A DNA stretch of 64,000 nucleotides from Eledone cirrhosa (lineage: Eukaryota). The translations under genes were made by a program, and so were the position numbers. The notes below the pieces were generated by a model. It did no database searches. It was not told the DNA's origin and was given only the letters and a program-made list of their open reading frames with translations. How positions within the stretch are numbered: the stretch's first letter is position 1; each line of letters starts with the position of its first letter. This document shows positions 1 to 38,300 of this stretch, one piece after another. The DNA lies in NCBI GenBank assembly GCA_964016885.1, contig OZ024760.1, forward strand, positions 15,066,001-15,130,000. Reading direction: 5' to 3'.

Positions 1-506
1 GATATAGTGTACTTTTCGATGACCGCGATATCGAGCTTAAATTCTCTTGTCAATAAGGTAAATCACACACACATACATACACACACACATACATACACAC
101 ACACACACACACACACATACATACATACATACATATATATGTATACTCACACATGGATTCTAGTTATTTTCTCTTGAAAATATTAACATATCAATGTTGC
201 CCCACCCCTCAGTCGGCTCTTTCAATGATTTATATATAAAAATATATACGAAAAAAAAAAATTCGTCAATACTATTACCACCAATAATAACATACATCAA
301 AGCCTTTTCTCTCCCCCATATATATATATATATATATATATATATATATATATATATATATATATAAAACCAAAGATTAATACGGTTCATTGATTACTCA
401 ATGAATATAGTTTTACAATAGATTAAAAGCACTCTACAAAGAAGTTTTCTGGAGTTATTAATATTATTCAAAATATTAATAAATGAAGACATTCACATAA
501 TTAAAA

Positions 507-577
507 TATGTTTTATTATATATATTTCGGAGGTACTGTGCTGTTTTGTCAGTACGTCCTCGTCAGATAAGATACAT
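507..577 (-). ncRNA. Type I hammerhead ribozyme (family A, left arm)
   Basis: Reverse complement reads ucuuau-CUGACGA-GGAcGUACUG..CAGUACcUCC-GAAA-uauauaUA|auaaaa. Confidence 0.75.
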
Positions 578-678
578 GAATTGATGTATGACATACCTCA
601 ACTGTCTTGATGGTTTAATTTGACTGCCAAGACTGGAATTGAACCATCAAGACAGTTGAGGTATGTCATACATCAATA

Positions 679-750
679 TATGTATTTTATCTGACGAGGA
701 CGTACTGAAAAAACAGCACAGTACCTCCGAAATATATATAATAAAACATA
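679..750 (+). ncRNA. Type I hammerhead ribozyme (family A, right arm)
   Basis: Stem I UUUUAU/AUAAAA; core CUGACGA 691-697; stem II GGAcGUACUG/CAGUACcUCC 698-728; GAAA 729-732; minimal palindromic stem III; AUA cleavage triplet ending at 740. Confidence 0.85.
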
Positions 751-824
751 TATTTTAATTATGTGAATGTCTTCATTTATTAATATTTTGAATAATATAT
801 ATATATATATATATATATATATAT

Positions 825-1017
825 AACGAAGGGAATGTAGCAAGGAACCAGGTGGACCATAACGCACCAAAGTACTCAATACTTAGGGTAGTAGAGTGGG
901 TAATAGGAAAAAGTATGACCCCGACGGCTGAGCTCAAGCCGTTTCGACGGCTAATTCAGTCCAGAATTAGCCGTCGAAACGGCTTGAGCTCAGCCGTCGG
1001 GGTTCTACTCGCTCCTA
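825..1017. mobile_element. Foldback element (family B) carrying the 3' half of a hammerhead in each arm
   Basis: Perfect 40-bp arms 918-957/964-1003. GAAACGGCU-ugagcuc-AGCCGUC gives GAAA + stem III + GUC site. Flanked by (TA)n; a second single-arm copy is at 34322-34379. Confidence 0.7.
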
Positions 1018-33572: not shown

Positions 33573-33930
33573 CATGTTGAAGCTACATGAGCTGGCGACA
33601 TGTCGAAGGCTACATGAGCTGGCGACATGTCGAAGGCTACATGAGCTGGCGACATGTCGAAGGCTACATGAGCTGGCAACATTTCGAAGGCTACATGAGC
33701 TGGCGACATGTCGAAGGCTACATGAGCTGGCGACATGTCGAAGGCTACAGGAGCTGGCAACATGTCGAAGGCTACATGAGCTGGCAACATTTCGAAGGCT
33801 ACATGAGCTGGCAACATTTCGAAGGCTACATGAGCTGGCAACATTTCGAAGGCTACAGGAGCTGGCAACATTTCGAAGGTACATGAGCTAGCAACACTTG
33901 GAAGCTGCATGAGCTGGCAACATTTCGAAT
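33573..33930. repeat. 27-bp minisatellite, ~13 copies
   Basis: Unit gaaggctacatgagctggc(g/a)acat(g/t)tc. Confidence 0.95.
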
Positions 33931-34417
33931 ACAGCCATTGTGTAGCTTAGAAGGAACATTATATTATTTCATCTTTTGAAAAAAAAAAAAAAAAAAATGG
34001 AAGGGTACAAACAAGACCCGTGCTATTCTTGCTATGTCTAGGAGGGCAGAAAATCCCAATAATTACTTTCCTTCACCATCCCACCCACTTTGGAGGCTTT
34101 CTAAAGAGACATAAGCACTGTCGTTCACTCTGAAGTTAATTGATATTGCTCACATGCAGCCATCAATTCAGCTGACTACATCGGTGAAGGTGTGTGGCCA
34201 AGTGGTTAGGGTTGTAGAGTCATGAACTTATAGTCATGGGTTTGATTCTTGGGAAAATCTGTGTGTTGTGTTCTTGAGTAACATACTTTGTTTCATGTTT
34301 CTTTTGATGATAGAACTGAGGACCAGAATTAGCCATCGAGACGGCTTGAGCTCAGCCGTCAGGGTCCTACTCATTCCTATATATATATATATATATATAT
34401 ATATATATATATATATA

Positions 34418-34552
34418 CAGGTAAAATTCCATTATAACAACATTTTTTTCAATCCCTGGCCGTGTGCTTGATGTGTTGGGTCGATCTTGAATTTTTCGTT
34501 ACAACAAATTTTTTTTATACCCCATGAATTTCATTATAATGGAATTTTACTG
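34418..34552. mobile_element. Tigger/pogo-type MITE at a TA site
   Basis: TA-CAG(G)TAAAATTCCATTATAA ... TTATAATGGAATTTTACTG-TA. Confidence 0.85.
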
Positions 34553-35204
34553 TATATAAAAATAAAATTAATGAGATATTTCCAGAACTTGCTTAAGAAT
34601 ATAGTCACCACAGATGACCCAGTCCTGTGTAGAAATAGAAAGAGACAGATATTCGGTGAGAGAGAGAGAGATAGCTGGTCATCAATAGAGAGACTGACAG
34701 CTGATGATAGAGAGAGAGACAAGGGAAACAGACTACAGTTCAGAGAGAGAGATACAGAAACAGCTGGTGAGAAAGACATTTGAAGAGAAACAGAGAGAGA
34801 GATTGTGAGAAGGTAGTGCTTGGTCTCAACAGCAGCCATTCAAGCCAAACCACTTTGATGGCACTACCACTACCACTACCACTCATCTATCTACCTCACC
34901 CCATTAACTTACACTTAAAAAAGGAAGCCAGTCATAGCGGCCAGTGGAAGTGAAATGGTATGGCATCAGGCAAAACTACAAACCTCACTGACCCTCTTTG
35001 TTCTTGTGTTCAATTTACAATTATTCTTCCTTTAAAACAAAACTGTTTTCTAGGCCAAGTACAGTTTCAAGGAAATAGGATTTCTCTATCATAAGACACA
35101 AGACTGTAGAAGGAAAAGCAAGCCTCTACATGGTTACTTGATCTGTAGGAAATAGCAGTCAAATCTCCTTCATATCACACCCTATCATCATTGTCATTAT
35201 CATG

Positions 35205-35395
35205 GATTGGCAGTATCGGTAGAGGGTCTGACGCCATGCTTTGCAGCAAAGAGTTACAGCCCTTGCCATTCTGAGTTCAAATCCCGCCGAGGTTAACTTT
35301 GCCTTTCATCCTGACGGGGTCGATAAATAAAGTACCAGTAATACACTGGGGTAATTGCTGGCCTTGTGCCAAAAGTAGAAACAATTATCATCATC
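35205..35395 (+). mobile_element. tRNA-head SINE with Deu/Nin-like core; copies 50950-51135(-), 53430-53640(-), 53780-53965(-), partial 26795-26890
   Basis: B box GAGTTCAAATCC followed by 'cgccgaggttaactttgcctttcatcc...ggggtcgataaataaagtaccagta'. Confidence 0.8.
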
Positions 35396-38300
35396 ATCAT
35401 CATTGGTTAACATTTTTATCTTCCATGCTAACATGGGTTAGATGGGTTTGTCCGATTTAGAGGCAAGTTGGACGGGTGACTGTGTCTTGCTCATATAGGA
35501 CTGTTTCTGGCTGGTTTTTCTATGGCTGGGTGCCCTTCCTAACACCATCCACCTTGACAGTGTACGCTGGGTGCTTTTTGCCATGTCTTTTACATTATCG
35601 TCGTAATTATTCTCGTTAGCTTTGCCTTTCATTTTTACGGGGTTGATAAAATAAAGTACCAGTCATGCACTGAGGTCGATTTAATCAACTTTCTCCTCCC
35701 ATCGTCGTCATCATTGTCATCATAATTACCATCATCGTCATTATCACCATTGTCAGCATCATCACTATCGTCATCATCATCATACATCTGTTTTCCATGC
35801 TGACATGGTTTTAACAGCTGTAACAAATTGTAATGAAAGAGTTAACGGAAATTTACTTTTCTATTTTATTGTAGCTCTCTGTGAGACTTTGGAAAAATAT
35901 AAACAAAAGCCTTTTGTTATCTCTTTCACAGACACATATTACAACAGGCTATGTTTACATTTGATCAAAGTTTCATCATGTCAGCTAAAATATCATTTAA
36001 ATATACCTTAATACACATTTTAAATTACCCATACACATCGTTGTTTATTGTGCAATGAAGATTAATTAGGCACACTGCTTAATTAAATGATGCATGGTCA
36101 TGACTAGAATATAACACACTGCGTTCCAACTCATTACTAAGACTACATAACAATTGTCTTATTTTCATTCTGTATTTTCAATTTTTTTTTTTTTTTTTGT
36201 CTTTACTCAGACCTTTTCTGTTTCTCCTTTGTGATCCTTTTTGATTTTGTGATTTTGTCGGCTAAAGCCCGGCACGTGGAACTTTCTTTCCTCTTTCCAG
36301 TATAAAGCGTGAAACTAAGACTTCTTGTACCTCTGTTTGTTGTCTCCTTCAACTATATATATATATATATATATATATATAATCATCATCATCGTTTAAC
36401 GTCCATCTTCCACGCTAGCATGGGTTAGACGGTTTTGTTCCATTTGATGCGGGGGGGCCATGTTTATCCTGGGTTCAATCGGGGGTAACCACAGAGTATA
36501 AATATTTAATATAGAAATGGCTTCTACAGGACTAGAATTGTTTCATTCGAGAGAAATCTGATGATTTCTCCTGAATGAAACGGTCCTAGTCCTGTAGAAG
36601 CCATTTCTATATTAAATATATATATATATATATATAGGGATTGTAACATCCAGTTGCTGTAGGTTCACCAGAGTGAGCACTCGATGCAAAGTTTCCAGTA
36701 AGTACAAAATAATATTAATAAAAGGGATGATTTATTATATCTATTTATATATATATATGTATATAGATATATATATATATATATATATATATATGTATAT
36801 CATTGGCAAAGTCGTTACAACGCAGGATAGTGCTTTATGGTATATTCGTTCCGGCTTTCTGAGTTCAAATCCCGCCGAGGTCAACACTGCCTTTCATCCT
36901 TTCGGGGTTGATAAAAACAAAGTACCAGTCTAGTACTGGGGTCAGTTCTTCATCTATATCTCTTTCTTACTTCTTTCTCTCTCACTTTCTCTATCTTTCT
37001 CTGGAAGAAATCTGCTGTATTCAGACCTGGAAAGGAGATGGGCTCCTTCAGGTTTTAAAAATGCCCTAGAAACACTGTATGTCAATATGGTGCTTCTACG
37101 ACTCCCTCGGGAGTTATGGCACCAGGCATGCATTATAATATGGCAAATTTCCACAACGATTTGTCGACTCTAAAATATTTGAATTAACCCTTTAGCATTT
37201 ACATTACTCTATATTTACGATTATATTTTCGCAGTAAAGGCTTTACCTCACATAATTATCTTACATAATATCGAATCGAATCTACAAGATTTTCATATTT
37301 ATTTTGAGAACAATAACTTATCAGTATCAGTGGCCAGTTACAGCTGGTTTGAACAGGAGAGGTGAGTGAATTCTGGCCGGATACAGCCGGTTTAAATGCT
37401 AAAGGGTTAATGAACCATATGAAATCACATAAGCAGGACATTCTTATCCACAGATGAAGTGTTTCTGTGTGTGTGTATGTGTGATAGAAAGCAAAACAGA
37501 AGGAGGGTGAGTGAGAGGAAGACTGTAGTAACAGTTAGGGTTTTAATCATTGCAATTGATGGTACATAGTCTGCTTCTGAGGTGAGACCTTGTTCCCAAT
37601 AGATAAGCTTATCAAATCACCTTCCTACCAAGATATAAGTGGGTACATGTGAAGCTCTGTGTGTCTGTATGAACATGTGTTTGTCTATGTATGTATGAGT
37701 GTATATATGTGTGCGTGTTTATGTATGTCTATGTACATGTTTGTGTGTGTATGTACATGTTTGTCTATGTACATGTTTGTCTGTGTGTTTGCATGTCTAT
37801 GAACATGTTTATCTGTGTATGAGTGTATATATGTATGCGTGTGTATATGTTTGTGTATGTCTGTATGAACTTGTTTGTCTATGTATTTGTGTGTGTATGA
37901 GCATATATATGTACGTGTGTGTGTTGTGTATATATATATATATATATATATATGTATGTAAATATGTGTGTATTTGCGTATGTTATCACTGCCAAAATAA
38001 GTTCTGTCAAAAAACAAAATAAAGAAAAAAAAGCATTAATACATATTTTTAATTCTTTCTGTTTATTTTGGCAACTTCTGACACCATACAGTAGGTAGGA
38101 GTAGGAGGCAACAGGTGGGTTAAACCTAACTTAATTCCAGGTGTTAATTATTAACATCCTGTACCACATGATACCACATTAGCAAGATATTCTTGCAATG
38201 TATAAAACAGCATTATGACTGCATCACATTAAATATTAGTCTTTACTCTAATGTGCCAAATTTTTACAACAATCTGGCCCCTAGTAAAGATATAAACATT

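What the first reader, a model, noticed from the sequence alone, without database searches (positions are those of the whole stretch)
427..36682. Shared RAGYACTC motif in the outer tail of unrelated families
AAGCACTC 427-434 (A), AAGTACTC 870-877 (B), its reverse complement 3383-3390 (C), GAGCACTC 4605-4612 (E), 12280-12287 (A2), 10699-10706(-) and 36675-36682 (another family), and 24298(-)/24452. In the first seven it lies about 35-60 nt inside the microsatellite junction, in the same orientation relative to the element end: GAGTRCTY downstream of the ribozyme in element sense. Inference: a cis signal for RT/endonuclease recognition or 3'-end formation, shared by all families.
Basis: partly seen in the sequence, partly recalled or inferred. 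Interest (0 to 1): 0.7.

Follow-up and report, generated by a model that had tools for sequence, protein, structure and literature searches.

The report
Twin hairpins set Penelope copy ends
The short shared motif is half of a small predicted RNA hairpin that one clade of Penelope-like jumping genes carries twice, each copy 5-10 bases behind a point where inserted copies end, so it likely tells the element's reverse transcriptase where to start and would explain these elements' long-known 'tail'.

Summary
The motif is real. In 970 kb of held-out genome, 71 of 125 GAGTRCTY sites lie 30-80 nt before a (TA)n tract (9.5 expected). The 8-mer is the 3' half of a bulged hairpin: RCTC, variable stem, 2-nt U-led bulge, GAGY, then RCTY. 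The families are not unrelated, and not all families share it. Those traced are 3' ends or derivatives of Hydra-clade Penelope-like elements (PLEs); Neptune-type tails lack it. Full-length elements carry the hairpin twice, 5-10 nt downstream of the inner end and of the outer end that bound the PLE 'tail'. A predicted second hairpin was found for window family B (264 pattern matches; one read in full) and A2, not for A. The upper stem covaries, and 50 of 62 Hydra-type groups in metagenome contigs carry it. Best reading (0.65): a template-RNA signal that positions reverse-transcription starts, so tail length equals hairpin spacing; untested biochemically. Six literature searches found no description, but this scan noted the same hairpin earlier on other DNA.

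The parts
367..795 (-). Family A insertion in (TA)n: tailed sense arm (minus strand) plus inverted tailless arm; hammerhead cores at 566-525 (-) and about 691-735 (+)
427..455 (-). Hairpin 1 of family A (ACTC / TA bulge / GAGT, then GCTT), 5-9 nt after the inner end
826..1016 (-). Family B stub: 3' end of a 3,531-bp Hydra-clade PLE with an open RT-EN frame (L436), head-to-head with a tailless arm
870..897 (-). Hairpin 1 of family B (ACTC / TT bulge / GAGT, then ACTT), 5-8 nt after the inner end
3383..3390 (+). Family C 3' half of the hairpin; 5' arm deleted in this copy
4605..4612 (-). Family E 3' half; 5' arm decayed here; related cluster 68 has ACTC/GAGT with a 1-nt bulge
10653..10706 (+). 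Family F hairpin 1 with a long (about 40-nt) upper part
12280..12303 (-). Family A2 hairpin 1, 7 nt after the inner end; A2 is the 3' end of a decayed full-length Hydra-clade PLE (L445-L447); hammerheads at 12390-12353 (-) and 12442-12479 (+)
24298..24322 (-). Family G hairpin (GCTC/GAGC, then ACTC) on the inverted arm; one upper-stem mismatch; rare case with both arms tailed
24435..24459 (+). Family G hairpin GCTC / TA bulge / GAGC, then ACTC: G-C form of the basal pair
36675..36682 (-). F-related tail, 3' half of the hairpin only
63708..63735 (+).
25115..25138 (+). Family C hairpin with ACCT 4-mer (missed by the 8-mer)
31876..31895 (+). Family C hairpin, shortened, ACCT 4-mer
23599..23649 (-). 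Hairpin 1 of autonomous Hydra-type family H1 (GCTC/GAGC, then CCTC)
16677..16684 (+). Decayed tail resembling the hammerhead-bearing element in L093; 3' half only; assignment by eye

Best explanation
The motif is the 3' half of a conserved, predicted bulged hairpin present twice in Hydra-clade Penelope-like retrotransposons, each copy 5-10 nt downstream of one of the two fixed copy ends, and it likely acts on the sense template RNA as the site where the element's reverse transcriptase docks and begins copying. Shown: the sequence pattern, its covariation, its doubling, its distance to both ends and its clade restriction. Inferred: (1) the read-through or circular transcript places hairpin 1 and hairpin 2 after the hammerhead; (2) RT-EN binds a hairpin, nicks (TA)n and primes 5-10 nt upstream, helped by a few bases of TA microhomology; (3) starts at hairpin 2 copy the tail with hairpin 1 in it, starts at hairpin 1 give tailless ends, so tail length equals hairpin spacing; (4) using one site per target strand gives the head-to-head stubs with a one-sided tail. 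The stubs in the window are truncated products; their hairpin 1 is a copied passenger.
For: Ends paired without using the motif: 12 tailed clusters have RYTC 6-10 nt after the called inner junction (20 rows, of which 3 were internal artefacts and 5 lacked it). Junction-to-RCTC modes (TA start, divergence): B 8/5, A2 7/7, A 9/5, C 8/6, F 8/4, H1 inner 6/2, H1 outer 6/3, H2 inner 8/4, H3 inner 7/4 (rows picked from a noisy table). Second hairpin after the outer end, before the ATG, in H1-H4. Prediction test: B outer end plus RCTC gave 264 genome matches and 0 for the reversed control; 98 of the 100 listed read the same 6-nt spacer then GCTC; the one unit read has a full hairpin and a Hydra-type ORF. 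A2: 5 matches, the 3 fetched all have a full hairpin before a decayed Hydra ORF. Independent Hydra-type loci from metagenome contigs: descriptor fixed on this genome hits 35 of 68 upstream regions in sense, 0 antisense, 0.5 shuffled, 0 of 450 ORF windows; the following ACTN was not in the descriptor yet recurs. A looser pattern finds 50 of 62 groups, with pairs mostly 55-83 nt apart. Structure-free test: upper-stem pairing 0.81 in 12 genome families and 0.62 in 69 metagenome clusters at bulge 2, versus 0.29-0.46 at slid registers; 0 of 5000 permutations reach the total. G-U outnumbers A-C 10 to 3 on the sense strand. Published coral and sea-cucumber Hydra consensi carry it, Hydra-1_Ajap twice before its ATG (PMC8557442 File S7). 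In vitro, a Poseidon PLE starts RT at two internal sites that bound the tail and needs RNA 3' of them (PMC11167929). Of 63 inverted partners of tailed copies, 1 is tailed, while ORF-bearing H1 arms end inner/outer 17/13. TA microhomology mean 3.0 versus 1.0 null, on 17 hand-picked junctions.
Against: No biochemical or RNA data. The A-U form is weak: it is not in the minimum-energy fold of the window's B and F copies, and 4 of 7 folded segments are no more stable than shuffles; basal-helix probability is 0.02-0.31 in five of the consensus tails. No second hairpin was found for family A (2 matches, the one read lacks GAGC); for C a single odd match without an ORF check. The 3' 4-mer varies in autonomous families (CCTC, ACCC, TTAA, TAAC), and H3 hairpin 1 needs a 100-nt loop. 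Permutation tests ignore relatedness. 12 of 62 metagenome groups had no hit (some contigs lack flanks). Hydra-1_Obim and Hydra-1_Amil consensi show no clear hairpin and Hydra-1_Crog only a variant. The in-vitro support is from another clade whose sequence file could not be read. Some metagenome junctions fall 0-3 nt from the hairpin or at other microsatellites.
Confidence: 0.65

Rival explanations
1. The hairpin forms in single-stranded sense DNA of a transposition intermediate and is recognised by the GIY-YIG endonuclease, which cuts 5-10 nt upstream to resolve the intermediate and make both ends.
For: Craig et al. ascribe the tail to EN-mediated resolution (PMC8557442). Frangieh et al. report that D. 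virilis EN needed the tail for plasmid cleavage. Covariation cannot tell RNA from ssDNA.
Against: In vitro the tail ends coincide with RT start sites on RNA. TA microhomology at junctions fits priming. One hairpin 2 has a C(UUCG)G loop, a single case.
Confidence: 0.14
2. The hairpin directs RNA cleavage or 3'-end formation 5-10 nt upstream, and RT then primes at the new RNA 3' ends as in ordinary LINEs.
For: A fixed distance to two ends fits a processing ruler equally well.
Against: For PAc, longer 3' extensions did not change the product and starts were internal. The pattern matched no named ribozyme among the 150 Rfam rows shown (143 lower rows unseen).
Confidence: 0.1
3. The template is antisense RNA, and the hairpin's complement is a stop (template-boundary) element, so the fixed ends mark where copying halts.
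For: An antisense template was proposed for PLEs (PMC3846280 passages). PLE RT is sister to telomerase RT (PMC8557442 abstract); boundary stems in telomerase RNA are recalled, not from a call.
Against: G-U bias favours the sense strand, 10 vs 3. The other end of copies is the variably truncated one. PAc used sense RNA.
Confidence: 0.06
4. The motif is shared only by descent or serves an unrelated job (promoter or translation element of the pLTR), and its nearness to the ends is incidental.
For: The families share ancestry, and hairpin 2 lies near the ATG.
Against: Loops and flanks have diverged beyond alignment while the stem covaries. The distance to the junction holds at both hairpins although spacing ranges from about 55 to 170 nt.
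Confidence: 0.05

Closest known systems
Hydra clade of C-terminal EN+ Penelope-like elements (Craig et al. 2021, PMC8557442)
   Same: Single RT-EN ORF with DKT, CxCX5C linker, no CCHH, CxxC and CxH around E/N; hammerhead near the 3' end; (TA)n targets; tandem and inverted truncated copies; one-sided tail.
   Different: The passages, section 11 and supplement parts I read do not describe a tail hairpin. Tails here are about 55-170 nt rather than 30-40 nt; unit B is 3.5 kb; RWR replaces RWK in some; two families have non-canonical hammerhead cores.
Internal RT initiation of Poseidon PLE PAc (Frangieh et al. 2024, PMC11167929)
   Same: Two internal start sites bound the tail; RNA 3' of them is required; both target strands are extended.
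   Different: Other clade; no paired conserved hairpins named in the parts read; starts lie in an AC-rich stem-loop without target homology, whereas here they lie upstream of a hairpin with short TA microhomology.
3' stem-loops of stringent LINEs (UnaL2, ZfL2, SART1; as reviewed in PMC5135761 passages)
   Same: Small bulged stem-loop near the 3' end, inferred RT recognition, shared with non-coding derivatives.
   Different: LINE stem-loops lie upstream of the start and are copied. Here the hairpin lies downstream of the start it marks, is not copied at that end, and occurs twice.

Membership tests
Hydra-clade PLE (families B, A2, H1-H4) | Single ORF with RT and C-terminal GIY-YIG EN | tested here: met
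   L436 frame aligns over 707 aa at 41% to P0004 and 53% to H1; YIGLT motif present. Pfam gave only a weak GIY-YIG hit for H2 (E 0.057) and none for H1/H3 fragments.
Hydra-clade PLE (families B, A2, H1-H4) | DKG changed to DKT | tested here: met
   DKT in B, H1, H3, H4
Hydra-clade PLE (families B, A2, H1-H4) | N-terminal RWK motif | tested here: inconclusive
   RWK in H3; RWR in B, H1, H4, A2
Hydra-clade PLE (families B, A2, H1-H4) | CxCX5C linker, no CCHH, CxxC and CxH flanking E and N | tested here: met
   Read by eye in H1-H4 and B
Hydra-clade PLE (families B, A2, H1-H4) | Insertion into (TA)n | tested here: met
Hydra-clade PLE (families B, A2, H1-H4) | Canonical hammerhead near the 3' end | tested here: inconclusive
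   CTGANGA cores in A, A2, C, G, H3, H4; altered cores in H1 and B; cleavage untested
Hydra-clade PLE (families B, A2, H1-H4) | Generally shorter than 3 kb | tested here: not met
   B tandem unit 3,531 bp (spacing); the paper gives this as a tendency
Hydra-clade PLE (families B, A2, H1-H4) | Placement in the Hydra clade on an RT tree | not tested
   No tree was built; reference sequences were seen only in the paper's supplement
Hydra-clade PLE (families A, C, E, F, G) | Linked Hydra ORF | tested here: inconclusive
   No full parent found for A, C, E, G; F derivative L252 keeps a short Hydra-like N-terminal peptide; assignment rests on tail architecture and A-A2 similarity
Stringent-LINE 3' recognition stem-loop | Stem-loop lies within the copied 3' end, upstream of the start | tested here: not met
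   Each hairpin lies downstream of the junction it marks
Stringent-LINE 3' recognition stem-loop | Bound by the element's RT and required for retrotransposition | not testable with these tools
   needs biochemistry

The most novel reading that the evidence does not exclude
Hydra-clade PLEs use twin RNA hairpins as rulers: an RT-EN dimer binds both hairpins on one transcript and primes the two strands of a (TA)n target at two sites, one per hairpin. That single step would create the head-to-head insertion and its one-sided tail, and a roughly 30-nt portable signal placed 3' of any RNA would set the cDNA start.
Probability: 0.35. Interest if true: 0.82.

Novelty: new variant of a known kind. Interest (0 to 1): 0.62.

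Why it matters
How PLEs, the closest mobile relatives of telomerase RT, choose where to start copying, and why their insertions carry a one-sided tail, is open; the 2021 and 2024 papers both call for mechanism. A clade-wide covarying hairpin at a fixed distance from both ends gives a precise, cheap test: mutate, compensate or shift it in the published in-vitro assay, using an open Hydra ORF such as L436 or L219. It is also a marker for Hydra-derived non-coding stubs, which are common in this genome (115 descriptor hits in 970 kb against 30-52 in shuffles).

Tried and rejected
Rfam scan: the 150 rows shown were nearly all miRNA-family hits on microsatellites (one viral UTR family), below gathering score; 143 rows unseen; no family for the hairpin seen. 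The repeat finder was swamped by microsatellites. Pfam was uninformative on these ORFs; family PF26215 is not in the searchable library. The first all-8-mer ranking double-counted overlapping windows and was dropped; one search replaces it. The upstream-extension test was confounded by microsatellites. Intermolecular pairing through the palindromic 8-mer was rejected because the commonest form outside this genome, GAGCACTC, is not self-complementary as RNA. The look-up of sequencing runs: no RNA holder listed; no reads were laid. PAc sequence file unreadable, Figure S2 text empty, Table S1 only run ids, so the Poseidon tail was not examined. Naiad and Chlamys consensi showed only scattered 8-mer matches in the passages returned (line-wrapped matches can be missed). 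Literature searches; none of the listed titles or abstracts describes the hairpin; subscription papers (for example Pyatkov 2004, Evgen'ev and Arkhipova 2005) and Repbase entries were not seen. No tree, covariance model or structure prediction was made.
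Full report
Observation. All listed sites are present; the window holds 18 RAGYACTC matches against about 5 in shuffles. The window lies on contig C21 of G000, a 3.0-Gb genome, rich in TA microsatellites. I took 97 ten-kb stretches at round coordinates (ten adjoin the window). There 71 of 125 GAGTRCTY sites with a downstream TA tract lie 30-80 nt before it, against 9.5 expected. The pattern ranks first among 10,080 permutations of its letters, and the bias is strand-specific, 42 of 55 versus 12 of 55. These are repeat copies, so the counts show a real feature of several repeat families, not independent events.

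What the motif is. Listing contexts showed a complementary ACTC upstream of most TA-proximal sites (45 of 74 near sites versus 6 of 65 far sites within 8-30 nt). The unit is a 4-bp base RCTC/GAGY, a variable upper stem, a 2-nt bulge on the 3' side starting with U, and an unpaired RCTY-like 4-mer. The base occurs as A-U or G-C at position 1, and one cluster has GTTC/GAAC. With no pairing demanded, the four positions after RCTC pair with those before the bulge in 0.81 of cells (12 genome clusters, each from 2 or more loci) and 0.62 (69 metagenome clusters, including mis-assigned 5' arms). Slid registers give 0.29-0.46, and 0 of 5000 permutations reach the totals; relatedness is not corrected. 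Folding support is mixed: G-C forms fold well, while A-U forms are marginal and absent from the best fold in two window copies.

Which elements. The window elements are head-to-head stubs in (TA)n with hammerhead cores, the published PLE layout (PMC8557442: passages, section 11 and supplement parts 1, 2, 52, 53 read; PMC4209133: passages). Long ORFs in the sample gave two PLE types. Four families with DKT and a CxCX5C linker (H1-H4) match the Hydra definition and carry the hairpin. Two families with a CX4CxxC linker (Neptune/Nematis type, named from the paper's motif descriptions, no tree) have 45- and 60-nt tails without it. Of the 42 hammerhead hits, many belong to families without the motif. 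So 'shared by all families' fails. Window family B is the 3' end of a 3,531-bp tandem element with an open Hydra-type frame. A2 ends a decayed full-length one. F has a short derivative with both hairpins. Full parents for A, C, E and G were not found.

Geometry. Pairing ends without using the motif gave 20 rows. Three were internal artefacts; 12 have RYTC 6-10 nt after the called inner junction; 5 do not. Family A adds one. In pLTR-ORF junctions of H1-H4 a second hairpin follows the outer end at about the same distance. I then predicted it for window families. For B, 264 genome sites match, the reversed control gives 0, and 98 of the 100 listed have the same 6-nt spacer. For A2, 5 sites match and the 3 fetched have a full hairpin. 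For A, 2 sites match and the one read has no hairpin. For C, one atypical site was found. Tail length therefore equals the hairpin spacing where both are known. Among 63 inverted partners of tailed copies only the window's G pair has two tails (partners counted only where an exact anchor matched), whereas ORF-bearing H1 arms end at the inner site in 17 and the outer in 13 of 30.

Other organisms. A scan of metagenome contigs with an alignment of 38 Hydra-type proteins (37 of the 120 listed plus H1) returned 78 loci in 62 groups. The descriptor fixed beforehand hit 35 of 68 upstream regions and 21 of 62 downstream regions in sense, 0 and 1 in antisense, about 0.5 and 0.8 in shuffles, and 0 of 450 ORF windows. 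Nearly all read GCTC...GAGC-ACTN. A looser pattern finds 50 of 62 groups, with about 30 groups showing pairs 55-83 nt apart. Of six published Hydra consensi, three carry the canonical hairpin (coral Amil-2, sea cucumber Ajap-1 twice and Ajap-2), one a variant (Crog) and two none visible.

Mechanism. A hairpin that fixes a junction upstream of itself, and is missing from the product at that junction, most simply acts on the template. Frangieh et al. (PMC11167929; parts 1-2 of 4 read, supplements 2 and 3 uninformative) showed for a Poseidon PLE that RT starts at two internal sites bounding the tail, needs RNA 3' of them, extends both target strands and is predicted to be a dimer. I infer that in Hydra elements each hairpin docks RT-EN and sets a start 5-10 nt upstream, with about 3 nt of TA microhomology (mean 3.0 versus 1.0, 17 junctions picked by hand). 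Cervera and de la Pena's proposed circular or tandem template would keep both hairpins on the RNA. The main rivals are EN recognition of a DNA hairpin, RNA processing, and an antisense boundary element; none is excluded.

Novelty. The elements are a known clade. The hairpin works like the bulged 3' stem-loops of stringent LINEs (PMC5135761, passages) but fails their position criterion. Six searches showed no description in listings or abstracts; closed-access papers and Repbase were not visible. After I had derived the hairpin (notes), one search showed that this scan had reported it on other pieces of this genome and on another genome; those AI notes are not independent evidence. Their word 'bulged' prompted me to define the 2-nt bulge, which I then tested. 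Verdict: real, clade-specific, likely an RT-positioning signal; new variant of a known kind; interest 0.62.

Noticed in passing
L437 (G000:C2:356029900-356031100): A 299-bp head-to-tail array (7 listed matches) derived from family B by internal deletion; it keeps both hairpins and the hammerhead-like region but almost no ORF, like a minimal non-autonomous circle.
   Followed up: partly
L219 and L436 pLTRs; window 935-1000: Two abundant young families (H1, B) have altered hammerhead cores (CAGAAGA and GAGAAGA-like) yet many near-identical copies, which suggests self-cleavage may be dispensable or the core is a variant.
   Followed up: no
L108, L106, L057 3' ends (clusters 46, 32): Two Neptune-type families share their own conserved tail start (GTTTC..ACAC..TTTCA-like), possibly a clade-specific counterpart of the Hydra hairpin.
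   Followed up: no
L252; L066:-:7397: Short non-coding derivatives of families F and G that keep both hairpins; in the G-type one hairpin 2 has a long inserted loop.
   Followed up: partly
L069 and L042: Tandem arrays of a roughly 310-bp hammerhead-bearing unit without the hairpin, 11 hits in L069.
   Followed up: no
window 27461-27519 and 39262-39323: A very common repeat family (also 10020-10238) gives a loose match to the hairpin descriptor (4-mer CTAT); may be chance.
   Followed up: no
window 16830-16980: Minus-strand element with a hammerhead core of different style ending in (TA)n (cluster 22), without the hairpin; clade not determined.
   Followed up: no
L077/L201-L207: Hydra-type family H2 has a 3' UTR of about 2.5 kb and long low-complexity insertions in its ORF.
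   Followed up: no
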